A DNA stretch of 37,126 bases from a virus (IMGVR_UViG_3300045988_013563:1-37126), one strand, 5' to 3'; shown: positions 3,439-23,013, counted from the first letter of the stretch. Notes: generated by a model from the sequence alone, not told the origin. A program made the numbers and translations.

Positions 3439-3466
3439 GGTGTCCTTTCCTTGATCGGTAATTACT

Positions 3467-3494
3467 ACTATACACCTATCGCATTGGGAAGCAA
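3467..3494 (-). promoter_or_regulatory. Sigma-70-type promoter for the small membrane gene, carrying the conserved block GATAGGTGTATAGT
   Basis: The minus strand reads TTGCTT, a 16-nt spacer, then TATAGT (-10 at 3467..3472, -35 at 3489..3494). The 13-nt block ATAGGTGTATAGT is shared with the promoters at 16193 and 18167. Confidence 0.65.
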
Positions 3495-8668: not shown

Positions 8669-8968
8669 CTAGTCCTTTCTTCGATGCAGTAAAAATTGTG
8701 CGAAGAGCTGTATTTCCTCTAGCTCTTTGTCTGTGTAAATCCGGTTTGAAAAGGTTATTTCACGTTGTGGGGTTCCGTGTACTAATTCCTCGATTGATAC
8801 TCCGAAATATTCAGATAATTTCAACAGTGTAGGTAAGCTGATATTCTCAGCACTCCGGTTGAACCATGAATTAACCGCACTTGGGCTTATCCCGGTGTCT
8901 GCCGCCATTTTTCGACGGGATACGCCTTTTGCGCACATTAGCGCTCGAAGATTGTCACAAAATGCCAT
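8669..8968 (-). CDS. XRE-family HTH repressor (CI-like)
   Basis: NLRALMCAKGVSRRKMAADTGISPSAVNSWFN... is an HTH_3 pattern. Strong RBS GGGAGGTGA. The gene is directly upstream of int and divergent from the early operon. Confidence 0.85.
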   Translation of the reverse strand: MAFCDNLRALMCAKGVSRRKMAADTGISPSAVNSWFNRSAENISLPTLLKLSEYFGVSIEELVHGTPQREITFSNRIYTDKELEEIQLFAQFLLHRRKD

Positions 8969-9105: not shown

Positions 9106-9134
9106 TTGCAATTTGAAATTTATGGGTGTATAGT
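9106..9134 (+). promoter_or_regulatory. Early rightward promoter (TTGCAA-17-TATAGT) with conserved GGTGTATAGTGG block
   Basis: -35 at 9106..9111 and -10 at 9129..9134. It overlaps the palindrome aaattg-tgttg-caattt (9099..9115). Confidence 0.65.
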
Positions 9135-10038: not shown

Positions 10039-10599
10039 ATGGAAGAGTGGCGAGACATAGAAGGCTACGAGGGGTATTACCAAGTCAGCAATCTTGGGAA
10101 TGTCCGAAGCCTTGACAGGACACTGCGAGGCAGAGACGGAGTCTTGTACCCGCATAGAGGCGTGGTGATGAAGCCGACAACCAACAAAAACGGCTACAAG
10201 TATGTCGTGCTGAAGAAAGATGGTAAGTTCAAAGGATTTACCATCCACGGGTTGGTCGCGCGGGCATTCCTTGAACGTGACCCACTGCGCACTGAAATAA
10301 ACCACAAAGATGGCATCAAGACCAACAACAACGTCTCTAATCTTGAATGGGTGACGCACAGTGAAAATGAAAAACACGCTATTGCAACAGGTCTGATGGA
10401 CATGGCAAAAATCCAGCGGATTTCTGCTGAGAAGCGCAGAAAACCTGTGAAACAGATGGGAGAAGATGGAAATGTGATTGCCGTATTCGGGAGTGCAACT
10501 GAAGCATCTAAGGTACTTGGAATATACAGGCGCAGCATCGCAAGGTGCTGCGAAGGCGAGTATAAACATGCTGGCGGATACCGTTGGCAATTCGCGTAG
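10039..10599 (+). CDS. Free-standing HNH homing endonuclease (NUMOD4 + HNH_3 + C-terminal HTH)
   Basis: WRDIEGYEGYYQVSNLGNVRS; HGLVARAF...INHKDGIKTNNNVSNLEWV; C-terminal SATEASKVLGIYRRSIARCC...GGYRWQF. It is inserted between Gp157 and ERF. Confidence 0.85.
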   Translation: MEEWRDIEGYEGYYQVSNLGNVRSLDRTLRGRDGVLYPHRGVVMKPTTNKNGYKYVVLKKDGKFKGFTIHGLVARAFLERDPLRTEINHKDGIKTNNNVSNLEWVTHSENEKHAIATGLMDMAKIQRISAEKRRKPVKQMGEDGNVIAVFGSATEASKVLGIYRRSIARCCEGEYKHAGGYRWQFA

Positions 10600-12390: not shown

Positions 12391-12429
12391 AATTGGCGGG
12401 TAGTTTTTCGTAGCTACTACCCGCCAATT
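12391..12429 (+). terminator. Hairpin with 14-bp stem between dut and the GIY-YIG gene
   Basis: aattggcgggtagt (12391..12404) / actacccgccaatt (12416..12429), with a T-rich loop. Confidence 0.5.
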
Positions 12430-12460
12430 GCATATTATCAAGAGCATACAAGGAGTGACC

Positions 12461-13249
12461 ATGTATACGGTTTATAAGCATACCACACCCAGCGGAAAGC
12501 GATATATCGGGATCACAAGCCAAGAGCCTGAGAGACGTTGGCAGAACGGCGCTGGGTACAAGGATAATGAACACTTTTACCGTGCGATTCAAAAATATGG
12601 GTGGGAGAATATCAGTCATGAGATTGTGGCTGACGGTTTAAGCAAGGCTCAGGCGTGCGCTTTGGAAATACGGTTAATTGCCGAGTATGACACTACGAAC
12701 CAAGACAAGGGCTATAACCACAGCACAGGCGGTGAATCTGGGAGATTGGGCGTACACCCTAGTGTTGAGACTCGACGGAAGATCAGTGAAGCGCTCAAAG
12801 GGCAATCACCTTGGATTAAGGGTAAGCATATGAGTGCTGGAGCGCGGATGAATCTCAGCAAAGCGCACAAAGGTAATCGCCTCAGTATCGAAACTCGGCG
12901 GAAAATAAGCGAAGCTAACAAGGGTAGGCATTTTAGCGTTGAGACACGGCAGAAGATCAGCAAAGCGAACAAAGGTAAGCATATGAGTGCCGAGGCACGG
13001 CGGAAGAACAGCGAAGCGAAAAAGGGAGCTAACAACCCGTGGTATGGTAAGCACCTGAGTGTTGAGACTCGACGGAAGATCAGTGAAGCACAAAGTAAAA
13101 GTGTTGTATGTGCTGAGACTGGTAAACAATACGCTTCTACCCGTGAAGCCGCCAAAGCGATTGGGCTAAGAAGTAACGGGTCTATATGCAGTGCCTGCCG
13201 TGATGGACGCAAGACGGCTGGTGGTTATCATTGGGAGTACGCCGGTTAA
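12461..13249 (+). CDS. GIY-YIG homing endonuclease (I-TevI-like) with about 6 NUMOD3 repeats and a C-terminal HTH
   Basis: YTVYKHTTPSGKRYIGIT...RWQNG...YRAIQKYGW...E (GIY-YIG). Repeated H(M/L/F)S(V/A)E(T/A)RRKISEA(N/L)KG units occupy about 12757..13095. The C-terminus ends in GGYHWEY. ATG 12461 follows AAGGAG. Confidence 0.9.
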   Translation: MYTVYKHTTPSGKRYIGITSQEPERRWQNGAGYKDNEHFYRAIQKYGWENISHEIVADGLSKAQACALEIRLIAEYDTTNQDKGYNHSTGGESGRLGVHPSVETRRKISEALKGQSPWIKGKHMSAGARMNLSKAHKGNRLSIETRRKISEANKGRHFSVETRQKISKANKGKHMSAEARRKNSEAKKGANNPWYGKHLSVETRRKISEAQSKSVVCAETGKQYASTREAAKAIGLRSNGSICSACRDGRKTAGGYHWEYAG

Positions 13250-14513: not shown

Positions 14514-15353
14514 ATGGAAGAGAACATGCTTAAAGCATTGATCGAGAAGGCAAGCAAGGGTGATCATTACGAGGAAGGCGACTACTTCGTGGACGGCCTG
14601 CTCTATTGCGGTAAATGCCATACAGCTAAACAATGCCGATTCGAAGCAGCATGGGGTGGCATCATGGAGCCTTACTTCCTCTGCGAGTGCGGTATGAAGC
14701 GTAGGGAAGAGGAAGAGAAGGCGCGGAAGGCTAGGGAATTCCAGTCTGAAGTGAAGCGGCTCCGCAAGCTGGGATTCCCGGACGCTGAGATGGCTAACTG
14801 GACTTTCGCCAATGATGATGGCGCTGATAGTAAAATCTCCGGTATCGCTCACAAGTATGTGGATAATTTCATGGAGATGAAGAAGCGCGGCAAGGGCTTG
14901 CTGCTGTATGGAACTGTGGGTAGTGGCAAGACGTATATCGCGGCTTGCATCGCCAATGAGCTGATTAATCGTGGCCACCCATGCTTGGTGACGAATTTCG
15001 CGCGGATTACGAACACTTTGCAAGGAATGTTCGAGGGCAAGCAGCGGTATCTCGATGACCTGAATCGGCTGGACTTGCTGGTGATTGACGATTTAAGCGC
15101 CGAACGTGACACGTCATTTATGAATGAGATGGTATTCAACGTGATCGATGCGCGGTATCGCAGCGGCAAGCCGCTGATCGTCACGTCTAATCTCACGTCC
15201 GAGGAATTGATGCGTCCTAACAATATCGACAAGCAGCGTATATATAGTCGTGTGCTGGAAATGTGCTTCCCCGTGGAAGTCAAGGGCGTGGATAGGAGGA
15301 AGAAGAAGTTGCGTGACGATTCGGCGGATATGGCGCGACTTCTAGGGTTGTGA
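14514..15353 (+). CDS. DnaC/IstB-like AAA+ helicase loader
   Basis: Walker A LLLYGTVGSGKTY and Walker B LLVIDDLSAER. N-terminal Cys cluster CGKCH...CECG. Confidence 0.9.
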   Translation: MEENMLKALIEKASKGDHYEEGDYFVDGLLYCGKCHTAKQCRFEAAWGGIMEPYFLCECGMKRREEEEKARKAREFQSEVKRLRKLGFPDAEMANWTFANDDGADSKISGIAHKYVDNFMEMKKRGKGLLLYGTVGSGKTYIAACIANELINRGHPCLVTNFARITNTLQGMFEGKQRYLDDLNRLDLLVIDDLSAERDTSFMNEMVFNVIDARYRSGKPLIVTSNLTSEELMRPNNIDKQRIYSRVLEMCFPVEVKGVDRRKKKLRDDSADMARLLGL

Positions 15354-15652
15354 CGGAGCGTGACTTGGCTCAGGCTCGACACTTGAAAGCAGAGAGTGAG
15401 AGTGTGCGCTCGCTGCTTAGCGTGGAGCTTGAGCCATCATGCCGCCGATTACTAGCCGAGCATCTGGAGCGTGTGGAGCGGCAGCGATTCGACTTGATGG
15501 CGTGGATCATCTCAGTGCCTGATGATCGAGTGCGGCTGATCTGCATCATGCGCTTCTTGGAGGGTAAGTCGTGGGAGACGATAGCAAGGCGATTGCATTA
15601 TGAGCGCACCAGCCCGGCCAAGATACTCAGACGATGGATTAAAGGACTATGA
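15350..15652 (+). CDS. Sigma-70 region-4-like phage transcriptional regulator (DUF1492/ArpU-RinA-like class)
   Basis: VPDDRVRLICIMRFLEGKSWETIARRLHYERTSPAKILRRWIKGL is a region-4-type HTH. The GTG start overlaps the upstream stop (GTGA). Confidence 0.65.
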   Translation: MTERDLAQARHLKAESESVRSLLSVELEPSCRRLLAEHLERVERQRFDLMAWIISVPDDRVRLICIMRFLEGKSWETIARRLHYERTSPAKILRRWIKGL

Positions 15653-15679
15653 TTATCAGTGACAACAAGGAGGATTTGA

Positions 15680-15892
15680 ATGGATTGGCAGGATCGGCTC
15701 AGGGACGAATACAGTGAGCTTAATGAGCGGTACGAGCGGCTTAAAAGCTTCATTGATGACATTAATGAGGGCAAAGTCATCGATGAGTCGGCGGTTTCTC
15801 AGGTTGGGTTGCTTGAAATTCAGACTCATATCATGGCGGCGTATATCAACATCCTTGCGGAGCGTGCCCATCTTGCTGGAATTCGGCTTTAG
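15680..15892 (+). CDS. Hypothetical helical protein (70 aa)
   Basis: AGGAGG-like RBS (aaggagga) upstream. Coiled-coil-like sequence DEYSELNERYERLKSFI...LLEIQTHIMAAYINILAERA. Confidence 0.65.
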   Translation: MDWQDRLRDEYSELNERYERLKSFIDDINEGKVIDESAVSQVGLLEIQTHIMAAYINILAERAHLAGIRL

Positions 15893-15912
15893 CCTGTCAA
15901 AGCGTGTATAAT
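15882..15912 (+). promoter_or_regulatory. Promoter for the tRNA unit (GTGTATAAT -10 block)
   Basis: TATAAT at 15907..15912 is preceded by GTG, as in the other conserved promoters. The -35 region is weak (TTCGGC at 15882..15887, 19-nt spacer). Confidence 0.45.
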
Positions 15913-15985
15913 CGTTCGTGCTAGCCGGTATCCAGTTGTGCGCACAGCGGGATATCGTGTGATAAAGCTGGGCAATGTCCAGTTC

Positions 15986-16056
15986 ATGCCGGTGGTGCAG
16001 TAGTAGCATGGCGGTCTCCAAAACCGCAGGCGCAGGTGCGATTCCTGCCCGGTGTG
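15986..16056 (+). tRNA. trnW: tRNA-Trp (anticodon CCA) with non-canonical D and T loops
   Basis: Hand-folded cloverleaf. The acceptor stem is atgccgg/ccggtgt (A1-U72, 2 G-U pairs) with G73. U8 is present. The D arm is gtgc-agtagta-gcat. The anticodon arm is gcggt-CUCCAAA-accgc. There is a 4-nt variable loop. The T arm is gcagg-tgcgatt-cctgc. CCA is not encoded. Confidence 0.6.
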
Positions 16057-16129
16057 CCGATATGATTGAATGAGATGTACGGGGGATTACTCGACCGGCT
16101 CTTGTGAGTGTGTGGCGGTTTCCTGATTT

Positions 16130-16160
16130 GGCGGCATGTCCTAGGCGTGCCGCCTTTTTC
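16130..16160 (+). terminator. Intrinsic terminator after the tRNA unit
   Basis: ggcggca (16130..16136) / tgccgcc (16148..16154), followed by TTTTT. Confidence 0.75.
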
Positions 16161-16165
16161 GTATC

Positions 16166-16239
16166 CTTGGCGTGTCAAAACGTTGATAGGTGTATAGTTG
16201 ACATTACCCACAGGAAACCACCTGAGAAAGGAACACACA
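16166..16239 (+). promoter_or_regulatory. Promoter + leader cassette A (paralogue of 18140..18212)
   Basis: CTTGGCGTG...GATAGGTGTATAGT (-10 at 16193..16198), then the leader ...CCTGAGAAAGGAACACACA-ATG. It aligns with cassette B over about 75 nt. Confidence 0.6.
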
Positions 16240-17073
16240 ATGAAAATCACCACAGCAAAAGGGATCCTTGAAGGCGAAAGCATCGAGGCAATCCTCGAAA
16301 AACACGGGCGCGACTGCCTACGTGGTGCAAACCTGCACGAGGTTGACTTAAGTAATGCCGACCTACGTGGTGCCAGCCTGCGCAATGCGAACCTGCGCAA
16401 TGCCTACCTGCGTGGTGCCAAACTGAGCGGTGCGTGCCTGCGCAATGCGAACCTGCGCAATGCCTACCTGCGTGGTGCCAAACTGAGCGGTGCGTGCCTG
16501 TACAATGCAAACCTGAGCAATGCCTACCTGTGTTACTCCAACCTGCGTGGTGCGGACCTAACCTTTGCAAATTTGTACCATGCGAACCTGCGTGGTGCAG
16601 ACATGTGTGGTGTATGCCTGTTTGGTGCAGACCTACGTGGTGCAAACCTGTGTTACTCCAACCTGCGTGGTGCAAACCTGCGTGGCGCAAACCTGTGCAA
16701 TGCCAACGGCGCAGACCTTATCGAGGCGCAGTCGCGCATAATACCAGACGAAGGCGACATCATCGGCTGGAAAAAAGCGCAGACAAGAGACGAGAATCCA
16801 GTCATTGTAAAACTGCTTATCCCAGCCGACGCGCAACGCTCCAATACCATGTGGCGTAAATGTCGCGCCAACAAAGCACGAGTGCTTGATCTGCAAGACC
16901 CTGACGGCAACAGTCTCAAGCCTGATACCGTCGCGTACAGCGTACACGATCCGGAATTTACATATAGGCTTGGTGACACGGTGGAATCTAACGGATTTGA
17001 CCCTGACCGGTGGACTGTGTGCGTTCCCGGCATCCACTTCTTCATCACCCGCGCCGAGGCAGCTGCATATTAG
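16240..17073 (+). CDS. Pentapeptide-repeat protein with conserved phage C-terminal domain (DUF5758-like)
   Basis: About 26-27 consecutive A(D/N)LXX-type pentads (ANLHEVDLSNADLRGASLRNANLRNAYLRGAKLSGACL...). The C-terminal ~125 aa end in WTVCVPGIHFFITRAEAAAY. ATG 16240 follows GAAAGGAA. Confidence 0.85.
   Translation: MKITTAKGILEGESIEAILEKHGRDCLRGANLHEVDLSNADLRGASLRNANLRNAYLRGAKLSGACLRNANLRNAYLRGAKLSGACLYNANLSNAYLCYSNLRGADLTFANLYHANLRGADMCGVCLFGADLRGANLCYSNLRGANLRGANLCNANGADLIEAQSRIIPDEGDIIGWKKAQTRDENPVIVKLLIPADAQRSNTMWRKCRANKARVLDLQDPDGNSLKPDTVAYSVHDPEFTYRLGDTVESNGFDPDRWTVCVPGIHFFITRAEAAAY
16381..16500 (+). repeat. Perfect 60-nt tandem duplication inside the pentapeptide-repeat gene
   Basis: 16381..16440 is identical to 16441..16500 (cgcaatgcgaacctgcgcaatgcctacctgcgtggtgccaaactgagcggtgcgtgcctg). 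This equals 20 aa, or 4 pentads. Confidence 0.98.
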
Positions 17074-17142
17074 GGACAGCGTGCGGAGACACCCAAAACC
17101 AAAACAAGGAAACACCCAAGCCACCAAACGAAAGGAACCGCC

Positions 17143-17316
17143 ATGATGCTCACACCAAAGGAAGTGAGAATGGCACAGCTCACCACACACCGATTCCGCG
17201 AAGGCTACGACACAGACGAAGTGGATGACCTGCTGGACGCTTGCGCAGACACTATCGAAACCCTCGCCAAAGTACTCGAATCCATCATAAAAGCGAAAGG
17301 AAACACCAATGAGTAA
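17143..17316 (+). CDS. DivIVA-domain miniprotein (57 aa; missing from the ORF track)
   Basis: MMLTPKEVRMAQLTTHRFREGYDTDEVDDLLDACADTIETLAKVLESIIKAKGNTNE. LTPxEV...F...GYDxxEVDxxLD is the DivIVA N-terminal domain signature. RBS is GAAAGGAA. Confidence 0.75.
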   Translation: MMLTPKEVRMAQLTTHRFREGYDTDEVDDLLDACADTIETLAKVLESIIKAKGNTNE

Positions 17317-17395
17317 GACGGATACTCGGCAAAAGTTGAATAATCTTGCCAAATACATGCAGTTTTTCGGTGATGAGCCATTCTGTTCACGATGA
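17309..17395 (+). CDS. 28-aa ORF (MSKTDTRQKLNNLAKYMQFFGDEPFCSR), possibly the 5' half of a frameshifted gene
   Basis: The ATG overlaps the end of the DivIVA gene. RBS is AAAGGAAA. The ORF terminates 23 nt into the next ORF. Confidence 0.35.
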   Translation: MSKTDTRQKLNNLAKYMQFFGDEPFCSR

Positions 17396-17516
17396 CGAAA
17401 AAGGCGAAATACGACCAACACCACGCTTGTATATCGACATGGATCAAGATCTCTCAGTGGGGCATCATCGCGTCTATGTCATCGAAGTCAACACCAAGAA
17501 TGGGGAAAACAAATGA
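17373..17516 (+). CDS. 47-aa ORF (MSHSVHDDEKGEIRPTPRLYIDMDQDLSVGHHRVYVIEVNTKNGENK)
   Basis: Protein-like composition. Its stop overlaps the start of the next gene (ATGA at 17513). It is in the +1 frame relative to 17309..17395. Confidence 0.45.
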   Translation: MSHSVHDDEKGEIRPTPRLYIDMDQDLSVGHHRVYVIEVNTKNGENK

Positions 17517-17725
17517 ACCAGACACCCAACCCTCCAACACCTCCGACACTCCACGAAACCGGATGCCTGCTGCTCGCATCAAGCGGCTTCTACATCCGCA
17601 TCAATGAGGACGGCAGCGCCAGCCTCGTTGACGGCATCCAAGACGTCACACTCGCGGACTTCACGCCAGCGGAAATTGAAGGCATCGCATACGCGCTCAA
17701 TGAAATGACAGGAAACACAAGATGA
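17513..17725 (+). CDS. Hypothetical protein (70 aa)
   Basis: Coupled at both ends by ATGA overlaps. No recognisable motif. Confidence 0.6.
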   Translation: MNQTPNPPTPPTLHETGCLLLASSGFYIRINEDGSASLVDGIQDVTLADFTPAEIEGIAYALNEMTGNTR

Positions 17726-17871
17726 AAAGGACTGGAGACAGACAAATGACCAGCCATGAAAGCGAATTTCAGCGGCGTGACCACAGCACACACACAGACA
17801 GGAATCCGAAGCAACTGGAAGCGACGCGACGAAGCACGAAAACGCGAAATCGCCAGCTCGAAGGACAATAA
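17722..17871 (+). CDS. Possible 49-aa basic ORF (alternative to 17756..17974)
   Basis: ATGA coupling to the upstream gene. Product is MKRTGDRQMTSHESEFQRRDHSTHTDRNPKQLEATRRSTKTRNRQLEGQ. The frame choice is ambiguous. Confidence 0.3.
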   Translation: MKRTGDRQMTSHESEFQRRDHSTHTDRNPKQLEATRRSTKTRNRQLEGQ

Positions 17872-17974
17872 GCGCATGTCCAGCCTGATCATGAGCGAGA
17901 TGGCAAGTGAAATCGCTGAACTTCGGAAGCCTAAGCCCACGATTGGAAGGCTTGAAAATGGCAAGGAAGCATGA
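17756..17974 (+). CDS. Possible 72-aa ORF (alternative frame; may instead start at ATG 17876)
   Basis: Listed ORF with no RBS at 17756. GAAGGA precedes the internal ATG at 17876 (MSSLIMSEMASEIAELRKPKPTIGRLENGKEA). Confidence 0.3.
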   Translation: MKANFSGVTTAHTQTGIRSNWKRRDEARKREIASSKDNKRMSSLIMSEMASEIAELRKPKPTIGRLENGKEA

Positions 17975-18134
17975 GATACGGGAAACGCCACACGATACGA
18001 AGTCGAGAACCTACCAGCTTACCGTGCATTATCTTGACCTTGGGTATCAGGCTGAGACTGTCGCTGAAATCGTCGCCATGAGCGTGGAGTATGTGCGTGG
18101 TGTAGAAGAGTATGAATCACGGTGTCGTGTTTGA
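17958..18134 (+). CDS. 58-aa HTH-like protein closing the operon
   Basis: MARKHEIRETPHDTKSRTYQLTVHYLDLGYQAETVAEIVAMSVEYVRGVEEYESRCRV has a helix-turn-helix-like core, GYQAETVAEIVAMSVEYVRGV. GGAAGG RBS lies 7 nt upstream. Confidence 0.55.
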   Translation: MARKHEIRETPHDTKSRTYQLTVHYLDLGYQAETVAEIVAMSVEYVRGVEEYESRCRV

Positions 18135-18139
18135 CGATT

Positions 18140-18212
18140 CTTCGGCGTGCCGCTCATATATAGGTGTATAGTGGTAGTTACAGACAAGGAACACCCGAGA
18201 AAGGAACCAGAA
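18140..18212 (+). promoter_or_regulatory. Promoter + leader cassette B (paralogue of 16166..16239)
   Basis: CTTCGGCGTG...TATAGGTGTATAGT (-10 at 18167..18172), then the leader ...CCCGAGAAAGGAACCAGAA-ATG. Confidence 0.6.
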
Positions 18213-18761
18213 ATGACCACGAATGAAACCGAGAGAGACAAGGCCCTGCAAGAAGTCATCGACTTCTGCACTAACTGGGCGAATGCGATTTACGACGATA
18301 AGGAAGGCGATTACTACGCGGACTTCATGCAGATCGATGCTCTGACTCGTGTGATTCGCAAATGCCGTTCCATGCTCGGCAGCGGCTCCATGCCGTCCGA
18401 TGTGCCGAATCAAAGCGAGGATGCGAATGTGAGGGGAGGTAAACCGATAGACAATGATCAGGAGCATGCGGTGTGGCGTGAAAGCATCGAAAAATACGGC
18501 AAGGAGACGCAAAGCATCGTCTGCATGGAGGAATGCTCCGAACTCATCCAAGCCGTCAGCAAGCTTCTTCGCGGCAAGACTGACGCCACCGACAATCTTG
18601 CGGAGGAAATGGCCGACGTGATCATCTGCCTGCACCTGCTCAAGGAAATGTACGACATCACCGACGAGCAGTTAAATGAATGGATCGCACGCAAGACGGC
18701 AAGGCAATCCAAGCGAATGCAGGCTGACGATCTGGAAAAAGCAGCGAAGGACGCGAAATGA
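18213..18761 (+). CDS. MazG-like nucleotide pyrophosphohydrolase with an ~80-aa N-terminal extension
   Basis: C-terminal half CMEECSELIQAVSKLLRGK...LAEEMADVIICLHLL is the MazG EExxE/D helix pattern. ATG 18213 follows GAAAGGAA. Confidence 0.7.
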   Translation: MTTNETERDKALQEVIDFCTNWANAIYDDKEGDYYADFMQIDALTRVIRKCRSMLGSGSMPSDVPNQSEDANVRGGKPIDNDQEHAVWRESIEKYGKETQSIVCMEECSELIQAVSKLLRGKTDATDNLAEEMADVIICLHLLKEMYDITDEQLNEWIARKTARQSKRMQADDLEKAAKDAK

Positions 18762-19039
18762 ACGATGTGCTAGACCTTCTCCCGCATGACATGGCTCTGC
18801 GCGTGGAACTCGATTGCGGTGAAACATATTACCTGAAAAGTGGATGGAAAGAATGCTGTGACGGGATCTATGGGCTTGCTTGCGGATACGCGTCTAGCGG
18901 ATGCGAGTATTACGCAGGAGGCCTTACGTGGTTTAAAGATCCGAGTCTCATCGCGATCATGAAGAGCCACGTGAAGCTAGCGGTCCCATTTGACGAACAC
19001 GAAACCGAAACCACCAAGCAAAGCGAGGATGCGAAATGA
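18758..19039 (+). CDS. Hypothetical Cys-rich protein (93 aa)
   Basis: ATGA coupling to the upstream gene. No recognised motif. Confidence 0.55.
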   Translation: MNDVLDLLPHDMALRVELDCGETYYLKSGWKECCDGIYGLACGYASSGCEYYAGGLTWFKDPSLIAIMKSHVKLAVPFDEHETETTKQSEDAK

Positions 19040-19114
19040 GCGCTCAATACAAGGTTTGCCCGCTGTTTTGGGCTGATCGCGGCAGTGACCGTCACTTAGT
19101 CAATATGGAGGCTA

Positions 19115-19369
19115 ATGATGATTAGTAAATACGACAAGGACATGTGTTGCCTGTATATCGCTGAGGGGATGAGCTACATCTGGCAACAACGAGGGGGCCA
19201 AGAGCTTTCCCGAATGCTTGAATCATTGGCCGATAGGAAGCTCATGAAGCGTGTCCATGGCGGGTATGCGATCACACTCAAGGGCCTGTTGGCAGTCAAG
19301 GCGTGGAGACTTCACCTGTTCCTGTTCCATCACCACGATGAATACAAGTACTTCAGGAGGAAGAAATGA
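19115..19369 (+). CDS. Hypothetical protein (84 aa), possible winged helix
   Basis: GGAGG RBS. ...LADRKLMKRVHGGYAITLKGLLAV resembles a wHTH wing. Confidence 0.55.
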   Translation: MMISKYDKDMCCLYIAEGMSYIWQQRGGQELSRMLESLADRKLMKRVHGGYAITLKGLLAVKAWRLHLFLFHHHDEYKYFRRKK

Positions 19370-19842
19370 GCAGGGCTGAGACCACCGCCATGCTATCCAA
19401 ACTGGTGGAAAAGCGTTTGAAGAATCAGACCGCTTTTTGGGCAAGTGAGGTCAATTTCGACCGGAACACGCCTGACGAGCGGCGAGTGGATTTCGTGGGT
19501 TTCCAACCGTGGAACATCAACGGCGAGCCAGTGCCAGCGAGCGTGGAGAAAGGCTGCTTCGAGTTCTATGAGGTGAAGTCGTGTATGGCTGACTTCACGA
19601 GCGGCAACGGTCTGACTTTCTACGGCGACCATAACTATTTGGTCTGCACGAAGGAACTGTGCGACGAGATCGTATGGCAGAAGATGGTGCCGGAGCGCGT
19701 GAACGCGATCCTGACACCGGATTCGACCGGTTCGAAACTGATTCTCGGCCACGTGCAGTCCAACCACGACCTGTCATACAGGCGGCGTCCGGCAAGCGAA
19801 ATCCTGTGGGCAATGGTCAAAGCGAACGGAAAGAGAAGCTGA
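19366..19842 (+). CDS. PD-(D/E)XK nuclease-fold protein (MmcB-like)
   Basis: ASEVNF...RRVDFVGF...FEFYEVKSCMADFTSGNGLTFYGDHNYLV contains the E...D...E-x-K arrangement. Confidence 0.55.
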   Translation: MSRAETTAMLSKLVEKRLKNQTAFWASEVNFDRNTPDERRVDFVGFQPWNINGEPVPASVEKGCFEFYEVKSCMADFTSGNGLTFYGDHNYLVCTKELCDEIVWQKMVPERVNAILTPDSTGSKLILGHVQSNHDLSYRRRPASEILWAMVKANGKRS

Positions 19843-19851
19843 GGACGATAA

Positions 19852-20541
19852 ATGACAGCCAAGGAAATCCGATTCGCCGGTTCGCCTGAAGAAATCAGCA
19901 AGGCGTGGCATGAGCAGCGTGATAAAGGCGTAGGCGGATCAGACGTGGGCGTGATCATGGGCGTGAACCCCTATAAGGGCCTCGTGACACTATGGCGTGA
20001 GAAAACCGGCAAAACTAAGCCTGAAGACATTAGCCACAAACCGGCGGTAATCCTCGGCAATGCCGTGGAGCCTGCACTACGCGATGAATACGCCTACAGG
20101 CACCCTAACGTCAAGGTCGAAGAACCACAATACATGCTCCAAGACGAGACGAATCCGTGGCGGCAAGCCTCACTAGACGGAGTGCTGACCTACGAGGACG
20201 GCAGGAAGGAAGTGCTGGAAATAAAGACGGTAGGCTGGCCTAGCGCCGAATACTGGGAGCCGGACACCGTGCCGATATCATACGTCTGCCAAGTCATGCA
20301 CTATATGGCGGTAAGCGGATACCGGCAAGCGCAACTAATCGCCATGATAGGCAATAGTCGGATAATCGAACGCTCTGTTGAACGTGACGAACTGCTGATA
20401 GAGATGATCGAGGACGCTGTGGACGAATTCTGGGATCACGTCCAAGCGGATACGCCACCATTGCGACATAACCCCACGATGGAATTCAAAGAACGAGTCA
20501 GTCGCGTATGCTATGACCCGGACAACATTCCACTATTCTAA
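19852..20541 (+). CDS. YqaJ-type (lambda Exo-like) recombination exonuclease
   Basis: GGSDVGVIMGVNPYKGLVTLWREKTGK...LGNAVEPALRDEY...SLDGV...LEIKT...QVMHYMAVSG is the YqaJ pattern. Confidence 0.8.
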   Translation: MTAKEIRFAGSPEEISKAWHEQRDKGVGGSDVGVIMGVNPYKGLVTLWREKTGKTKPEDISHKPAVILGNAVEPALRDEYAYRHPNVKVEEPQYMLQDETNPWRQASLDGVLTYEDGRKEVLEIKTVGWPSAEYWEPDTVPISYVCQVMHYMAVSGYRQAQLIAMIGNSRIIERSVERDELLIEMIEDAVDEFWDHVQADTPPLRHNPTMEFKERVSRVCYDPDNIPLF

Positions 20542-20769: not shown

Positions 20770-20973
20770 ATGGGCACCAGACACACCAAAGCAGCGAACG
20801 CCTACCACAAACGAGCCTCAAAACAGTACCATCTCGAACTCCACAAGGAAAACGACGCGGACATCATCAACCGACTGGACAGCGTGAAAAACAAGCAAGG
20901 CTTCATCAAGGCGCTGATTAGAGACGATATCAAGCGAGGACACAACAATGAGGAAGCTAGACCAGCCAAGTAG
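20770..20973 (+). CDS. Hypothetical small DNA-binding-like protein (67 aa)
   Basis: AYHKRASKQYHLELHKENDADIINRLDSVKNKQGFIKALIRDDI resembles the Arc/RHH-type small phage regulators seen in Gram-positive phages. Confidence 0.55.
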   Translation: MGTRHTKAANAYHKRASKQYHLELHKENDADIINRLDSVKNKQGFIKALIRDDIKRGHNNEEARPAK

Positions 20974-21310
20974 CGAAACATGCGAAATCGTAGACCAACG
21001 AGACGGTAGAAGTTGCGCAAGATGCGGAAAATCGCTTTATACCGTGTATGGAGCGCGACACCACAGGAAACTACGATCACAAGCATCTAAGGCTGAGAAA
21101 CACACTGCATCAAACCTTATCGACGTGTGCGAAGACTGCCACAGGTGGATTCATGCACACCCAAAAGAAGCGTATGAGCATGGCTGGCTCGTCCACGCTT
21201 GGGACGAACCATACAAGGTGCCAGTAGACCACGCATATTGGGGGAGATGTTTTCTTTGGAACGATGGCACCGCGGCGACTATCCCAGAGCCTGAATTGCA
21301 TCAGAAGTAA
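20948..21310 (+). CDS. HNH endonuclease (small)
   Basis: CARCGK...HHRKLRSQ...NLIDVCEDCHRWIH is an HNH/zinc-finger motif. GAGGA RBS. Confidence 0.75.
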   Translation: MRKLDQPSSETCEIVDQRDGRSCARCGKSLYTVYGARHHRKLRSQASKAEKHTASNLIDVCEDCHRWIHAHPKEAYEHGWLVHAWDEPYKVPVDHAYWGRCFLWNDGTAATIPEPELHQK

Positions 21311-21416
21311 AAGGAAAAGGGCATGGTCAAAAGCCATGCCCTAACTGACAAAGAAAGGAATACCCAAAATGAGTACACGACAAGTATAGCACGCGAAATG
21401 TCCCGCAAATCCCATG

Positions 21417-21458
21417 CTAATCACGATATAATCACAATTAGAAAAAGCGAGTGATTAG
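21417..21458 (+). promoter_or_regulatory. TATAAT box bracketed by an 8-bp inverted repeat (operator-like)
   Basis: ctaatcac (21417..21424) / gtgattag (21451..21458). TATAAT at 21427..21432. A second aatcac lies at 21430..21435. Confidence 0.4.
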
Positions 21459-21470
21459 AGGTCGAAAAAC

Positions 21471-21851
21471 ATGGGACTTAGCACAGAGGTAATCGTCGCC
21501 ATCGTAACAAGCGGATGCGCGGCAGTATCCAGCATATTCGTTGCCATCATCACATACGTCGGCAACAACAGAATGAAGCAGCGAGACATACAAGACACTG
21601 AATACCGCGCACGGCAAGCGCTGATCGACGCGAAACGGGAGCAGCAGCACAAGGAAAGGCAGTACTTGTACGACGCTCTACTGCGGGGGCTTGACGCAAG
21701 CCTAGCCGCAAACGAGATCAGCCTAATCGCACTCAACCACGGGCACTTGAATGGTAATGTTGGAGCTGCAATGGACAAGGTGCAAAAGGCACAAGCCAAT
21801 CTTGACGCTGCAACGAGCAAAGCAATCACACACCTTACAGATGCAGACTAA
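21471..21851 (+). CDS. Membrane-anchored coiled-coil protein (126 aa), possible lysis-related
   Basis: N-terminal TM segment VIVAIVTSGCAAVSSIFVAIITYV followed by a helical domain. First gene of the membrane-protein cluster that ends with the holin. Confidence 0.6.
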   Translation: MGLSTEVIVAIVTSGCAAVSSIFVAIITYVGNNRMKQRDIQDTEYRARQALIDAKREQQHKERQYLYDALLRGLDASLAANEISLIALNHGHLNGNVGAAMDKVQKAQANLDAATSKAITHLTDAD

Positions 21852-21872
21852 TACCGGCAGAAAGGATAAACC

Positions 21873-21947
21873 ATGAATACCGCGATCACGATCACGACAA
21901 TCATCTGCTTGACACTGGTGACCATCACGATAATCAACAAACACTGA
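21873..21947 (+). CDS. 24-aa single-TM peptide (MNTAITITTIICLTLVTITIINKH)
   Basis: GAAAGGA RBS 7 nt upstream of the ATG. Below the ORF-track size cutoff. Confidence 0.45.
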   Translation: MNTAITITTIICLTLVTITIINKH

Positions 21948-21963
21948 AAGCGAGGAAAAACCA

Positions 21964-22194
21964 ATGGACAACAAAACATACCTGCTCAACAATAAAACAT
22001 ACGAAGTATTGAAGTGGGCTGGACTGATCGCATTCCCGGCAATCGCCACCTTCATCGGCGTGATCGGCGCAGTCTGGGGCTGGCATGATACCGACGCAAT
22101 CGTGACGACACTCAACGCCATCGGCGTGCTAATCGGAGCCTTGATCGGCGTAAGCCACGCAACAGCCAAAACCGACAACAAGCAAACACACTGA
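21964..22194 (+). CDS. Holin (Dp-1-like two-TM type)
   Basis: YEVLKWAGLIAFPAIATFIGVIGAVWGW...AIVTTLNAIGVLIGALIGVSHATAK, with two TM helices and a charged C-terminus. The layout resembles the pneumococcal Dp-1 holin family. Confidence 0.6.
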   Translation: MDNKTYLLNNKTYEVLKWAGLIAFPAIATFIGVIGAVWGWHDTDAIVTTLNAIGVLIGALIGVSHATAKTDNKQTH

Positions 22195-22614
22195 ACATAA
22201 AAAATGGCTCCCACCACAACACAATGTGCTATGATGAGAGCCATAACGATTCCAACAAAGCCAGTATATCACACATACTGGGTACGGAGGTACGAAAACT
22301 CCCTAGCAATTCCCCAAGCTCGGATAACGGGGCGACCACTAACACTGGTTGATACACACGTTAGAGGTGCTAGTCCAACCGACCCGACAGGCGGCAGTGG
22401 AATAACCGGGGTGCCGACACTGCCACTCACCACGAGTAACGCGACCTGCTGGGGTATGCCGCACCAGTGTTAGCAATGCAACACTCTTATGACCGAAGCC
22501 GGGCGAACGAACGACCGACGGAAACCGTCAATAAGCCTTAACCTACAAGCAAATGTTTGTAGCTCTTAAGGCTTACTCTCTCCACCAAGCTCACTCACTC
22601 CCTCAAGAAACACT
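22195..22614 (+). other. 420-nt gene-free, structure-rich region upstream of the late operon (candidate leader/ncRNA/packaging region)
   Basis: No ORF with an RBS is present. Local hairpins lie at 22261..22281 and 22517..22529. A bipartite hairpin spans 22532..22575. An 11-nt long-range complement links 22339..22349 with 22463..22473. Confidence 0.5.
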
Positions 22615-22644
22615 ATGATAGTGATAGACATGGAGGTGACTGGA

Positions 22645-23013
22645 ATGCTTAAAGCCTGTGGATACTGCGGCAGGATGCACGACATCAATGCCACATGCCC
22701 AAAGAGACCGGCAAGACACTACCGTAAGACCGACGCAGACAAGCTACGCAACACATATCGGTGGCAGCGCAAACGCGAGCAGATCAGACAGGACGCACAC
22801 TACATGTGCGAGGTATGCAAGGCTAAAGGCATCATCACCACCAAAGGACTGGAAGTACACCACATCATCAAACTCAACACCAATCCAGACCTGCTAACCG
22901 ACGATGACAACCTGATCTGCCTGTGCGTCACCCACCACAAGCAAGCAGACGCAGGACAGATAAACCCAACCTACCTCCGACAACTCGCGCAAAAACGCCA
23001 CACAGAAAACTAA
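22645..23013 (+). CDS. Terminase-associated HNH endonuclease
   Basis: CGYCGR...C...WQRKREQIRQDAHYMCEVC...LEVHHIIKL...NLICLCVTHH. ATG 22645 follows GGAGGTGA. The gene sits at the head of the packaging module. Confidence 0.85.
   Translation: MLKACGYCGRMHDINATCPKRPARHYRKTDADKLRNTYRWQRKREQIRQDAHYMCEVCKAKGIITTKGLEVHHIIKLNTNPDLLTDDDNLICLCVTHHKQADAGQINPTYLRQLAQKRHTEN

What the first reader, a model, noticed from the sequence alone, without database searches (positions are those of the whole stretch)
16166..18134. Promoter-bounded pentapeptide-repeat / DivIVA / micro-ORF / HTH operon: candidate anti-defence or host-takeover module
A self-contained early operon lies between two copies of the same ~75-nt promoter-plus-leader cassette (16166..16239 and 18140..18212).

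Its contents are:
- A 278-aa pentapeptide-repeat protein with about 26-27 pentads and a ~125-aa C-terminal domain ending GIHFFITRAEAAAY.
- A 57-aa DivIVA-domain miniprotein (17143..17316) that the ORF track misses.
- Three to five tiny ORFs chained by ATGA overlaps.
- A terminal 58-aa HTH-like protein.

The layout (early promoter, small unknown genes, closing HTH) mirrors acr-aca-type anti-defence loci. Pentapeptide beta-helices are established DNA mimics (Qnr, MfpA), so this protein could target gyrase or restriction/other DNA-binding defences. The DivIVA domain suggests interference with host division or polar machinery.

The repeat gene also carries a perfect 60-nt tandem duplication (16381..16440 = 16441..16500). 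That is 20 aa, exactly one four-sided coil, which implies a very recent change in helix length. I can attach no assigned function to this gene combination.
Basis: partly seen in the sequence, partly recalled or inferred. Interest (0 to 1): 0.72.

Follow-up and report, generated by a model that had tools for sequence, protein, structure and literature searches.

The report
Variable accessory-gene slot in a gut phage
This stretch is the swappable accessory-gene slot of a temperate gut phage; its main gene belongs to a large family of viral pentapeptide-repeat proteins whose function is unknown, and the evidence does not support a dedicated anti-defence operon.

Summary
There are two related promoter/leader cassettes, a 277-aa pentapeptide-repeat protein (PRP), a 57-aa DivIVA-domain miniprotein, a 58-aa three-helix HTH-like protein and a perfect 60-nt duplication.

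Corrections:
- The PRP C-terminus is Pfam DUF5758. PRP+DUF5758 is a very large viral/prophage family, already annotated in about 150 cultured Mycobacterium phages.
- The promoter core occurs four times in this genome. No terminator closes the block.
- Of the "micro-ORFs", two are fragments of a ~79-aa gene broken by a 32-nt deletion, and one is an out-of-frame shadow. Only the 70-aa and 72-aa genes are real.

The gene set is not a conserved unit. Close relatives carry other small genes in the PRP slot. The repeat domain here is basic (net +9), so DNA mimicry is unlikely. Repeat-number changes are recurrent across the family.

The block reads best as a cargo hotspot of independent early accessory genes. 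It lies next to a Sequestin-family anti-Thoeris sponge homologue, so a counter-defence role stays possible but untested.

Verdict: new member of a known kind, moderate-low interest.

The parts
15680..15892 (+). Upstream neighbour (context): 70-aa Sequestin-family (PF21825) protein, the last protein-coding gene of the preceding transcription unit
   Evidence: Pfam PF21825 E=9.5e-18, 64.3 bits against a cutoff of 24.8. The family was shown to be 3'cADPR sponges that inhibit type I Thoeris (bioRxiv 10.1101/2025.07.12.664507). By my reading of the sequence, R6/E10/Q48/R62 correspond to that paper's R8/E12/Q47/R61.
15986..16058 (+). tRNA-Trp (CCA)
   Evidence: Rfam RF00005 56.3 bits; ARAGORN. 94-95% conserved in L003 and L234.
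16130..16160 (+). Intrinsic-terminator-like hairpin (11 pairs, 8 G-C) plus T-run. It ends the early unit that starts at the 9123 promoter.
16166..16239 (+). Promoter/leader cassette 1. It holds GGCGTG (16169-16174), the 12-mer TAGGTGTATAGT (16187-16198, with -10-like TATAGT at 16193-16198), and the RBS-like GAGAAAGGAAC.
   Evidence: The bipartite motif GGCGTGTC-N11-12-ATAGGTGTATAGT is conserved in five cassettes from three related phages. There is no canonical -35 box. Promoter activity is inferred.
16240..17073 (+). PRP-DUF5758 gene, 277 aa. Conserved N-cap is aa 1-22, the 27-pentad beta-helix region is aa 23-157 (16306-16710), and the DUF5758 C-terminal domain is aa 158-277 (16711-17070).
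   Evidence: Pfam PF00805 E=1e-40 and PF19062 E=2.8e-28. More than 7,900 homologues were found. The C-terminal domain matches 3,858 cluster representatives. dN/dS of the C-terminal domain is 0.18-0.27.
16376..16500 (+). Perfect period-60 tandem tract: a duplication of RNANL-RNAYL-RGAKL-SGACL, four pentads or one coil
   Evidence: It is absent from sister contig L002 and is the only difference between the two over 2.2 kb.
17143..17316 (+). 57-aa miniprotein made of the DivIVA N-terminal domain only
   Evidence: TIGR03544 E=7.4e-10. Against L003 there are 8 synonymous and 0 non-synonymous differences. Homologues are annotated in Bifidobacterium phage PMBT6.
17309..17395 (+). 28-aa N-terminal fragment of the disrupted ~79-aa gene X1. 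The 32-nt deletion junction lies between 17388 and 17389.
   Evidence: X1 is intact as 79 aa in L004 and is fused into a 148-aa ORF in L003.
17373..17516 (+). C-terminal remnant frame of X1 (47 aa from the ATG at 17373). It is probably not expressed, or only by re-initiation.
   Evidence: I see no SD-like sequence before 17373.
17513..17725 (+). X2, a 70-aa protein (NPPxPP ... RINE ... GNTR). It is a widespread small phage gene of unknown function.
   Evidence: dN/dS 0.37.
17756..17974 (+). Y, a 72-aa protein of unknown function. The start codon is uncertain because the RBS is weak here. It is 88 aa in L003 and 124 aa in L004.
   Evidence: dN/dS is 0.21-0.30, against 0.8-3.2 for the overlapping 49-aa frame.
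17958..18134 (+). Z, a 58-aa tri-helical HTH-like protein
   Evidence: 37 homologue clusters, nearly all 58 aa. AlphaFold2 pLDDT 82.5. Top Foldseek hits are the Sin recombinase DNA-binding domain, DeoR, sigma-H region 4 and GerE/LuxR. dN/dS 0.32-0.48. DNA binding has not been shown.
18140..18212 (+). Promoter/leader cassette 2 (GGCGTG 18144-18149; 12-mer 18161-18172)
18213..18761 (+). MazG-like nucleoside triphosphate pyrophosphohydrolase, 182 aa. It is the first gene after cassette 2, and nothing separates it transcriptionally from the block.
   Evidence: Pfam MazG E=8e-5 and phrog_2245 E=1e-25.

Best explanation
Region 16166-18134 is the variable cargo end of a second (middle or delayed-early) transcription unit of a ~37-kb temperate siphovirus from the human gut. 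It is not a dedicated, co-inherited operon.

Transcription (inferred). The early unit runs from the cro-side promoter at 9123 through the replication genes, a sigma-region-4-like regulator, a Sequestin-family gene and tRNA-Trp. It ends at the hairpin at 16130-16154. A phage-specific promoter class (GGCGTGTC-N11-12-ATAGGTGTATAGT) then restarts transcription at ~16200 and again at ~18175. No terminator lies between the two, so the block is read together with MazG and the recombination genes.

Contents. The slot behind the first cassette holds interchangeable accessory genes. In this genome they are:
1. A member of the very large viral PRP-DUF5758 family. It has a conserved N-cap and a right-handed beta-helix rod whose length changes in 5-aa steps by repeat slippage; the 60-nt duplication here is the latest such event. 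Its conserved 105-120-aa C-terminal domain carries invariant Lys21, Arg43, Cys51, Arg52, Tyr85 and His109, and near-invariant Cys104. I infer that this C-terminal domain is the functional head and that the helix is a spacer or adaptor, because giant viruses attach the same domain to RING, MORN, HEAT or pentapeptide repeats.
2. A miniprotein made only of the DivIVA N-terminal domain, under strong purifying selection. I infer that it binds host DivIVA/GpsB-type proteins or their partners, or the membrane, and so disturbs division or polar growth.
3. A decaying gene (X1), two small unknown genes (X2, Y) and a small HTH protein (Z), which is a possible regulator.

The products most likely act independently on host processes early in infection (takeover and/or counter-defence).

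Status of the claims. Shown: the anatomy, the family memberships, the lack of co-inheritance, the repeat dynamics and the charge. Inferred: promoter activity, timing and all biochemical roles.
For: Genome layout
- Integrase and cI/cro region, replication module, this block, MazG, exonuclease, terminase, portal and capsid.
- Terminator and promoter copies.

PRP-DUF5758 family
- Pfam domains.
- More than 7,900 homologues, with lengths stepping by 5 aa.
- 3,858 C-terminal-domain representatives, always at the C-terminus.
- Found in 152 Mycobacterium phage records. The one examined in context, phage 244, is a Kostyavirus; there the gene is the third of the operon divergent from the repressor.
- Found across many bacterial phyla.
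- Invariant residues of the C-terminal domain.
- The same fold follows RING, MORN, HEAT or pentapeptide repeats in giant viruses.

Repeat slippage
- Perfect tandem copies occur in 28 of 85 related genes.
- The sister contig differs only by the 60-nt indel.

Cargo slot
- L234, L235 and L236 keep the flanks, and L234/L235 the promoter cassette, but carry other small genes instead of the PRP.
- L003 has an extra 83-aa gene in the slot. L004 has two PRP paralogues.

No unit

Coding status
- dN/dS values are.

DivIVA domain. HTH fold of Z.
Against: - There are no expression data, so promoter strength, timing and read-through are inferred from sequence alone.
- Cassettes 1 and 2 lack a canonical -35 box, so they may need a factor I cannot identify.
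- The C-terminal-domain model is only moderately confident (pLDDT 74), and no solved structure resembles it. 'Functional head' is therefore an argument from conservation and domain architecture only.
- In PRP-anchored loci, the PRP, X2, a DivIVA-domain gene and a Sequestin-like gene recur together in a second phage lineage in a different order (33-71 of 84 loci). This could reflect functional linkage rather than shared ancestry.
- The host is unresolved. The structural genes resemble Lactobacillus delbrueckii phages, while the accessory genes resemble Bifidobacterium phages.
Confidence: 0.5

Rival explanations
1. Anti-defence locus of the acr-aca type. The PRP, and perhaps the small proteins, inhibit a host defence system such as restriction or another DNA-binding system. 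The terminal HTH protein Z would autoregulate the promoter, as Aca proteins do.
For: - The block lies directly downstream of a Sequestin-family gene (bioRxiv 10.1101/2025.07.12.664507), and anti-defence genes tend to cluster.
- A Sequestin-like gene lies within 1-1.4 kb of the PRP in 33 of 84 PRP loci.
- The slot is a variable hotspot of small, often acidic proteins.
- The PRP is among the first genes of the operon divergent from the repressor in Mycobacterium phage 244.
- Z has an HTH fold.
- A 6-bp inverted repeat, TGTCAA/TTGACA, brackets the -10 element of cassette 1.
Against: - No homology to any characterised inhibitor could be tested, because no anti-defence library was available. PHROGs places the PRP only in families of unknown function.
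- The repeat domain is basic (+9, pI 9.5), and charge is not conserved across the family, so a DNA-mimic mechanism is unlikely.
- The same C-terminal domain occurs in giant viruses of amoebae, which do not face bacterial defence systems.
- The inverted repeat is absent from cassette 2.
- Z, Y and X1 persist in relatives that lack the PRP, and the PRP occurs widely without them.
Confidence: 0.17
2. Qnr/MfpA-like topoisomerase modulator. The beta-helix mimics a DNA segment and binds gyrase, either to protect or redirect it for phage replication or to slow host replication.
For: - Pentapeptide repeats are the only fold class shared with the gyrase-binding proteins Qnr and MfpA.
- Phages are known to encode small gyrase inhibitors (review PMC10886550).
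Against: - NCBIfam Qnr scores 44 bits against a cutoff of 240, and MfpA scores 45 bits against a cutoff of 360. The best PDB matches are cyanobacterial or designed repeat proteins, not Qnr or MfpA.
- The net charge of +9 is opposite to DNA-like electrostatics.
- Helix length in the family varies from about 3 to 44 pentads. That is hard to reconcile with a fixed gyrase-fitting geometry.
- The C-terminal helix through which Qnr/MfpA dimerise (PMC10886550) is replaced by DUF5758.
Confidence: 0.07
3. Prophage-expressed 'moron' cargo. The block is transcribed from the lysogen and benefits the host, for example through superinfection exclusion or a change in cell-envelope or division physiology, rather than serving lytic growth.
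For: - The arrangement is a terminator followed by an own promoter.
- The same promoter core also drives an antisense 52-aa two-TM protein between the lysis and tail genes, which is a classic moron position.
- The cargo is variable between relatives.
Against: - The same 12-mer also forms the cro-side early promoter next to the cI-like repressor.
- No terminator lies downstream, so transcription would run into the lytic genes.
- There are no PADLOC hits.
- In phage 244 and the L022 lineage the PRP sits in the rightward lytic operon.
Confidence: 0.13
4. The 60-nt duplication, or its absence in the sister contig, is an assembly artefact rather than a biological polymorphism.
For: - The perfect period-60 tract is 125 nt, comparable to short-read length.
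- All contigs are de Bruijn assemblies; two contig names carry k119 and k141 prefixes.
- Apart from the indel, the two alleles are identical over 2.2 kb.
Against: - Each allele was recovered in several contigs: 3 with the 277-aa product and 2 with the 257-aa product.
- Perfect in-frame tandem copies at multiples of 15 nt occur in 28 of 85 related genes, with different periods.
- Family lengths step by 5 aa.
Confidence: 0.2

Closest known systems
Pfam architecture Pentapeptide (PF00805) + DUF5758 (PF19062), e.g. Mycobacterium phage 244 gp59 and Cjw1 gp59 ('pentapeptide repeat protein')
   Same: Same two-domain architecture, with 45-52% identity in the C-terminal domain. It is likewise an accessory gene in the non-structural arm of a temperate actinophage.
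   Different: The position in the genome differs. Here the gene follows the replication genes behind an internal promoter; in phage 244 it is the third gene after the repressor. The repeat tract here is unusually basic and carries a fresh one-coil duplication. No member of the family has a known function; a literature search for DUF5758 gave 0 papers.
Qnr / MfpA / AlbG gyrase-directed pentapeptide repeat proteins
   Same: Right-handed quadrilateral beta-helix built of A(D/N)LXX pentads.
   Different: Scores fall far below the family cutoffs. The net charge is positive rather than DNA-like. There is no C-terminal dimerisation helix; a DUF5758 domain takes its place. Helix length is highly variable (PMC10886550).
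DivIVA / GpsB N-terminal domain (TIGR03544; PDB 2WUJ)
   Same: It has the LTPxEV...GYDxxEVDxxLD motif. At 57 aa it is the same size as the crystallised B. subtilis DivIVA N-terminal domain.
   Different: It lacks the coiled-coil and tetramerisation part of DivIVA and the C-terminal domain of GpsB. It carries a 2-residue insertion in the loop that inserts into the membrane in B. subtilis DivIVA (the role of that loop is from my own knowledge). It is phage-encoded.
acr-aca anti-CRISPR operons
   Same: Small genes of unknown function behind a strong promoter, with a small HTH protein as the last gene.
   Different: There is no homology to a known Acr or Aca. No conserved operator inverted repeat was found. 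The gene set is not co-inherited, and no terminator closes the unit.
Sequestin (PF21825) anti-Thoeris sponges (upstream neighbour only)
   Same: The 70-aa neighbour at 15680-15892 matches the family at E=9.5e-18 and, by my reading, keeps its four key residues.
   Different: It lies outside the reported interval, in the preceding transcription unit. Activity was not tested for this member.

Membership tests
Pentapeptide repeat proteins (PF00805) | Tandem A(D/N)LXX pentads above the Pfam gathering score | tested here: met
   137.2 bits against a cutoff of 20.2, E=1.1e-40. 27 pentads at aa 23-157.
DUF5758 (PF19062) | C-terminal ~105-aa domain above the gathering score, with the conserved RKCR and GIHFF motifs | tested here: met
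   98.4 bits against a cutoff of 26.9, covering profile positions 5-105 of 105. K21, R43, C51, R52, Y85, G107 and H109 are invariant in 150 representatives, and all are present here.
Qnr / MfpA (gyrase-protecting PRPs) | Score above the NCBIfam family cutoff | tested here: not met
   Qnr scores 44.4 bits against 240. MfpA scores 45.3 bits against 360.
Qnr / MfpA (gyrase-protecting PRPs) | DNA-like (predominantly negative) surface charge on the helix | tested here: not met
   The repeat region has net charge +9 and pI 9.46. Relatives range from -19 to +7. This was computed from sequence, not from a surface model.
Qnr / MfpA (gyrase-protecting PRPs) | Tail-to-tail dimer through a short C-terminal helix (PMC10886550) | tested here: inconclusive
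   The C-terminus is a 120-aa, mostly beta DUF5758 domain with one terminal helix. The oligomeric state could not be predicted with these tools.
Qnr / MfpA (gyrase-protecting PRPs) | Binding to or protection of DNA gyrase | not testable with these tools
   Needs biochemistry.
DivIVA domain (TIGR03544) | N-terminal 34-aa DivIVA domain above the cutoff | tested here: met
   38.3 bits against a cutoff of 22, E=7.4e-10, over aa 3-38.
Full-length DivIVA / Wag31 / GpsB | N-terminal domain plus a coiled-coil (DivIVA) or C-terminal trimerisation domain (GpsB), with a score above the family cutoffs | tested here: not met
   The protein is only 57 aa. Pfam DivIVA gives 23.9 bits against 28, Wag31 gives 14.2 against 260, and GpsB gives 16.7 against 91.
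acr-aca operon | The HTH (Aca) gene belongs to a recognised HTH/Aca family | tested here: inconclusive
   The fold is tri-helical and HTH-like (Foldseek probability up to 0.98, but E=0.56-2). Pfam HTH hits among 26 homologues are non-significant, with a best E of 0.03. No Aca library was available.
acr-aca operon | Operator inverted repeats at the operon promoter | tested here: inconclusive
   Cassette 1 has a 6-bp inverted repeat, TGTCAA/TTGACA, around the -10 element. Cassette 2 does not share it.
acr-aca operon | A proven or homologous anti-defence gene upstream of the aca gene | not testable with these tools
   No anti-defence HMM library was on hand. PHROGs hits are all 'unknown function', and PADLOC gave nothing.
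Conserved gene module (operon-level unit) | The member genes co-occur in relatives, tested in both directions | tested here: not met
   - PRP-anchored loci (84): X1, Y and Z occur in only 5; the DivIVA-domain gene is adjacent to the PRP in only 4.
- X2-anchored loci: DUF5758 occurs in 10 of 80.
- Three of the four closest DivIVA-miniprotein loci lack the PRP.
Sequestin (PF21825), neighbour gene | Score above the gathering threshold and the four ligand-contacting residues | tested here: met
   64.3 bits against a cutoff of 24.8. R6, E10, Q48 and R62 have the same spacing pattern as R8, E12, Q47 and R61 in the paper, by my reading of the sequence.

The most novel reading that the evidence does not exclude
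PRP-DUF5758 proteins could be an unrecognised, pan-viral class of early effectors, found in phages of many phyla and, through the C-terminal domain, in giant viruses. In this reading an orphan Cys/Cys/His-bearing C-terminal domain does the work, and a beta-helical rod presents it. The rod's length and charge are retuned rapidly by in-frame repeat slippage, which would suit an arms race with a host target. The slot behind the GGCGTGTC-N12-TAGGTGTATAGT promoter, next to a Sequestin sponge, would then be a counter-defence/takeover island, and the DivIVA-domain miniprotein would be a second, division-directed effector.
Probability: 0.25. Interest if true: 0.7.

Novelty: new member of a known kind. 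Interest (0 to 1): 0.35.

Why it matters
The specific claim of a self-contained anti-defence operon built around a DNA-mimic helix does not hold, so the block should not be listed as a new system.

Three things remain useful:
1. A very abundant viral protein family (PF00805+PF19062) has no known function. It has thousands of members and occurs in about 150 cultured mycobacteriophages that are easy to manipulate. It shows unusually fast, in-frame length evolution and a strictly conserved orphan domain. That makes it a cheap, well-defined target for functional screens.
2. A phage-encoded miniprotein made only of the DivIVA N-terminal domain is under strong purifying selection. It is a plausible tool-like inhibitor of Gram-positive division or polar-growth machinery.
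3. The variable slot next to a Sequestin-family gene is a reasonable place to look for new counter-defence genes in gut phages.

Tried and rejected
- Megablast of 15000-20000 against cultured phages: no match.
- PADLOC on all ten products: nothing.
- PHROGs: only families of unknown function for the PRP; nothing significant for the small proteins.
- DUF5758 C-terminal domain against solved structures:
  - by sequence, best E=0.33;
  - by a profile of 28 diverse members, no hit at E<=10;
  - by Foldseek against the PDB, best E=1 and TM<0.3.
  The fold could not be linked to any solved structure.
- Literature: 'DUF5758' gave 0 papers. Searches combining pentapeptide repeat with phage anti-defense, Bifidobacterium prophage, mycobacteriophage, actinobacteriophage or DNA mimic found nothing on this family.
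- PRP-X2 as an obligate pair: suggested by 71 of 84 PRP-anchored loci, then rejected because only 10 of 80 X2-anchored loci have DUF5758 nearby.
- PRP-DivIVA as an obligate pair: 33 of 43 DivIVA-anchored loci have the PRP, but these are essentially one lineage with a fixed layout, and 3 of the 4 closest relatives lack it.
- Host assignment: exact-cluster look-ups return only 'Caudoviricetes sp.'. TerL and the capsid protein point to Lactobacillus delbrueckii phages. The PRP and the DivIVA miniprotein point to Bifidobacterium. GC is 51.5%, against ~55.6% for the Bifidobacterium-like loci. The host is left unresolved.
- Faster divergence of the repeat tract than of the C-terminal domain: not seen; the two diverge similarly.
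- Rfam over the whole window: only the tRNA.

Full report
CONTEXT

The window is a nearly complete ~37-kb temperate siphovirus genome from a human gut metagenome (ENA ERZ28657998, contig 37,169 bp). Its layout is as follows:
- serine integrase, 7183-8661 (-);
- cI-like repressor, 8669-8968 (-), facing a cro-side promoter at 9106-9134 (TTGCAA-17-TATAGT);
- recombination and replication genes: Gam/Gp157-like, HNH, Erf, SSB, dUTPase, homing endonuclease, replication initiator, DnaC-like;
- a 100-aa sigma-region-4-like regulator, 15350-15652;
- a 70-aa PF21825 protein, 15680-15892;
- the region in question;
- MazG, a YqaJ/RecE-like exonuclease, HNH genes, a ParB-like protein;
- terminase, portal and capsid.

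No cultured phage is close at the DNA level.

The host is unresolved.
- TerL and the capsid protein are 66-72% identical to those of Lactobacillus delbrueckii phages.
- The accessory genes have their relatives in Bifidobacterium prophages and phages.
- GC is 51.5%.

OBSERVATION CHECK

Promoter cassettes. The two cassettes are real. Regions 16166-16242 and 18140-18215 align at 72% identity, against 48 +/- 3.5% for random windows, and both contain TAGGTGTATAGT. That 12-mer occurs four times in the genome, where 1.3 is expected by chance:
- at the cro-side early promoter (9123, one mismatch);
- on the minus strand at 3467-3478, ahead of a 52-aa two-TM protein that lies antisense between the endolysin and tail genes;
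- at 16187 and 18161, the two copies reported.

The two reported copies lack a canonical -35 box. Instead they share GGCGTG(T/C)C 11-12 nt upstream of ATAGGTGTATAGT. That bipartite pattern is conserved in five cassettes from three related phages.

Terminators. A strong terminator-like hairpin (11 pairs plus a T-run) lies just upstream at 16130-16154, after a tRNA-Trp at 15986-16058. No convincing + strand terminator-like site follows the block before ~31900. The block is therefore not transcriptionally closed.

The PRP. The protein is 277 aa. It has a conserved 22-aa N-cap, 27 pentads and a 120-aa C-terminal domain. Pfam assigns the C-terminal domain to DUF5758 (PF19062, E=2.8e-28).

The duplication. 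It is exact, and the perfect period-60 tract spans 16376-16500. It duplicates RNANL-RNAYL-RGAKL-SGACL, which is one coil. Sister contig L002, from another sample, is identical over 2.2 kb except for this 60-nt indel.

The DivIVA-domain miniprotein. The 57-aa ORF meets the NCBIfam DivIVA-domain model (TIGR03544, 38.3 bits against a cutoff of 22) but not the full-length DivIVA, Wag31 or GpsB models. Public records already name it 'DivIVA domain protein'.

The micro-ORFs. Comparison with relatives L003 and L004 resolves them.
- The window has a 32-nt deletion between 17388 and 17389. It splits a ~79-aa gene (X1) into the 28-aa ORF and a downstream remnant frame.
- The 70-aa ORF (X2, 17513-17725) is a genuine gene. 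It is fused to X1 in L003 and absent in L004.
- The 49-aa ORF at 17722 is an out-of-frame shadow (dN/dS 0.8-3.2). The real gene is the 72-aa ORF Y, 17756-17974 (dN/dS 0.2-0.3).

The terminal protein Z. It has 37 homologue clusters, almost all of 58 aa, and is under purifying selection (dN/dS 0.32-0.48). AlphaFold2 models it as three helices with pLDDT 82.5. All its top Foldseek matches are HTH DNA-binding domains, including Sin recombinase, DeoR, sigma-H region 4 and GerE/LuxR. Probabilities reach 0.98, but E-values are only 0.56-2 because the query is so short. Pfam HTH hits among the homologues are not significant.

Selection on the DivIVA gene. Against L003 it shows 8 synonymous and 0 non-synonymous differences. 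It is clearly a functional gene.

WHAT THE PRP IS

PRP+DUF5758 is a very large family.
- More than 7,900 database proteins match the full-length query, all with the same architecture among those listed.
- The C-terminal domain alone finds 3,858 representatives of 50%-identity clusters, 1,937 of them at E<=1e-10. It is always at the C-terminus, behind an N-terminal part of very variable length.
- It occurs in 474 IMG/VR contigs.
- It occurs in genomes of Saccharibacteria, Rhizobiales, Clostridia, Lachnospiraceae, Eggerthellaceae, Anaerolineae and others.
- It occurs in 152 cultured Mycobacterium phage records (244 gp59, Cjw1 gp59, Kostya and others), where it is already annotated 'pentapeptide repeat protein'. 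In phage 244 it is the third gene of the operon divergent from the repressor.

The C-terminal domain has no known function.
- 'DUF5758' appears in no paper in the library.
- Neither a sequence, nor a profile, nor the AlphaFold2 model (pLDDT 74) matches any solved structure.
- Against predicted viral structures, the same fold appears at the C-terminus of giant-virus proteins whose N-terminal parts are RING, MORN, HEAT or pentapeptide repeats. It also appears in paralogues in a jumbo phage (27 hits at E<=1e-3).
- Across 150 diverse representatives, K21, R43, C51, R52, Y85, G107 and H109 are invariant and C104 is 99% conserved, in C-terminal-domain numbering.

These facts suggest, but do not show, that the C-terminal domain is the conserved working part. 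It may be a metal site or a Cys/His active site. The repeats would then serve as a scaffold or adaptor.

REPEAT DYNAMICS AND CHARGE

Family members differ in length mostly by multiples of 5 aa, for example 172, 177, 182 ... 207.

Of the 85 PRP genes in the collected loci, 28 contain at least one perfect tandem copy at a period that is a multiple of 15 nt. The periods seen are 15, 30, 45, 60, 75 and 90. One case has a 236-nt perfect run at period 90. The window's duplication is thus one instance of recurrent in-frame slippage, and periods other than one full coil are common.

The window's repeat region has net charge +9 (pI 9.46). The duplicated coil alone adds +4. Relatives range from -19 to +7, with medians of -1 to -7 in the three sets examined. 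Only 0-2% of relatives reach +5.

A conserved DNA-like negative surface is therefore absent, and this protein in particular is basic. Qnr and MfpA models score 44-45 bits against cutoffs of 240-360. The DNA-mimic or gyrase reading is therefore unlikely, though sequence-derived charge is not a surface map.

IS IT A UNIT?

PRP-anchored loci (84). X1, Y and Z occur only in the five closest relatives. A DivIVA-domain gene is directly adjacent only in four.

With iterated profiles, a second Bifidobacterium-type lineage shows a fixed layout: PRP, Bro-like gene, X2-like gene, Sequestin-fusion, then a DivIVA-domain gene about 2.3 kb downstream of the PRP. This gives the following counts out of 84:
- X2 in 71 loci;
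- DivIVA domain in 35 loci;
- Sequestin-like in 33 loci.

The reverse tests break the link.
- Only 10 of 80 X2-anchored loci have DUF5758 within 5 kb.
- Of the four loci with the closest DivIVA miniproteins, three lack the PRP. They carry other small, often acidic, genes in its place. L234 and L235 keep the same upstream flank and promoter cassette; L236 shares the more distal flanking genes.
- L003 has an extra 83-aa gene ahead of the PRP. L004 has two PRP paralogues and no DivIVA gene.
- X1 is decaying in this genome.

The position behaves as a cargo hotspot.

INTERPRETATION

The best-supported reading is a variable accessory slot at the head of a second transcription unit, holding independent early genes.

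A counter-defence role for some of them remains possible.
- The immediate upstream neighbour belongs to the Sequestin family. Ten of 13 tested members inhibited type I Thoeris, and a purified member bound 3'cADPR (bioRxiv 10.1101/2025.07.12.664507).
- This copy appears to keep the four key residues, by my reading of the sequence.

That is guilt by association only. PADLOC found nothing, and no anti-defence library was available.

The miniprotein made only of the DivIVA N-terminal domain is the best candidate for a host-takeover function. It is the size of the crystallised DivIVA N-terminal domain (PDB 2WUJ) and lacks the oligomerisation part. It could therefore cap or compete with host DivIVA/GpsB-type proteins. 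This is inference.

The acr-aca analogy rests only on Z's fold. A 6-bp inverted repeat brackets the -10 element of cassette 1 but is absent from cassette 2.

NOVELTY AND SCORE

Every recognisable component belongs to a described family, and the combination is not a system. The finding is a new member of a known kind. The open question that deserves follow-up is the function of PRP-DUF5758. Cultured Mycobacterium phages such as 244, Cjw1 and Kostya offer a direct experimental route to it.

Interest: 0.35.

Noticed in passing
window 15680-15892 (+): A 70-aa protein of the PF21825 'Sequestin' family, whose members are experimentally shown anti-Thoeris 3'cADPR sponges. It lies immediately upstream of the block. 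It appears to keep the four key residues (R6, E10, Q48, R62). A Sequestin-like domain also lies ~1 kb from the PRP in a second phage lineage (33 of 84 loci).
   Followed up: partly
window 15986-16058 (+): A tRNA-Trp (CCA) gene between the Sequestin-family gene and the terminator hairpin at 16130-16154. It is conserved at 94-95% in relatives L003 and L234.
   Followed up: partly
window 16169-16198 and 18144-18172; L003 4600-4629; L004 6228-6257 and 7379-7408: A conserved bipartite motif, GGCGTG(T/C)C-N11-12-ATAGGTGTATAGT, without a canonical -35 box, in five internal cassettes of three related phages. It may mark a promoter class that depends on a phage factor. Candidates are the 100-aa sigma-region-4-like protein at 15350-15652 and the 58-aa HTH protein Z.
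   Followed up: partly
window 3280-3478 (-): A further exact copy of TAGGTGTATAGT, here with a TTGCTT -35 box at 16 nt. It drives a 52-aa two-transmembrane protein that lies antisense between the GH25/LysM endolysin and the tail genes. The position is moron-like and suggests superinfection exclusion or lysogenic conversion.
   Followed up: no
window 17388/17389: A 32-nt deletion relative to L003 and L004 frameshifts a ~79-aa gene. The same lesion is present in the independently assembled sister contig L002, so it is real rather than a sequencing error.
   Followed up: yes
L004 1714-2421 and 5001-5774: A related phage carries two PRP-DUF5758 paralogues (235 and 257 aa; the 235-aa copy is 52% identical to the window's PRP) 2.6 kb apart in the same region.
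   Followed up: no
L234 4246-5004; L235 ~4690-4939; L236 3721-4987: In the closest relatives that lack the PRP, the same slot holds other small genes. Several are strongly acidic, and one is a 131-aa protein that looks XRE/HTH-like by eye (not scanned). This is a typical variable accessory hotspot.
   Followed up: partly
window 10039-10599, 12428-13249, 20948-21310, 22615-23013: Four HNH or GIY-YIG/NUMOD homing-endonuclease-like genes are scattered through a 37-kb genome.
   Followed up: no
window 21300-22250 (-): Two strong minus-strand terminator-like hairpins (22244-22204 with 19 pairs, and 21342-21318) suggest a reverse-oriented gene cassette between the exonuclease and ParB-like genes.
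   Followed up: no
whole window: Host signals are mosaic. TerL and the capsid protein are 66-72% identical to Lactobacillus delbrueckii phages, while the PRP, the DivIVA miniprotein and X2 have relatives in Bifidobacterium (pro)phages. GC is 51.5%.
   Followed up: partly
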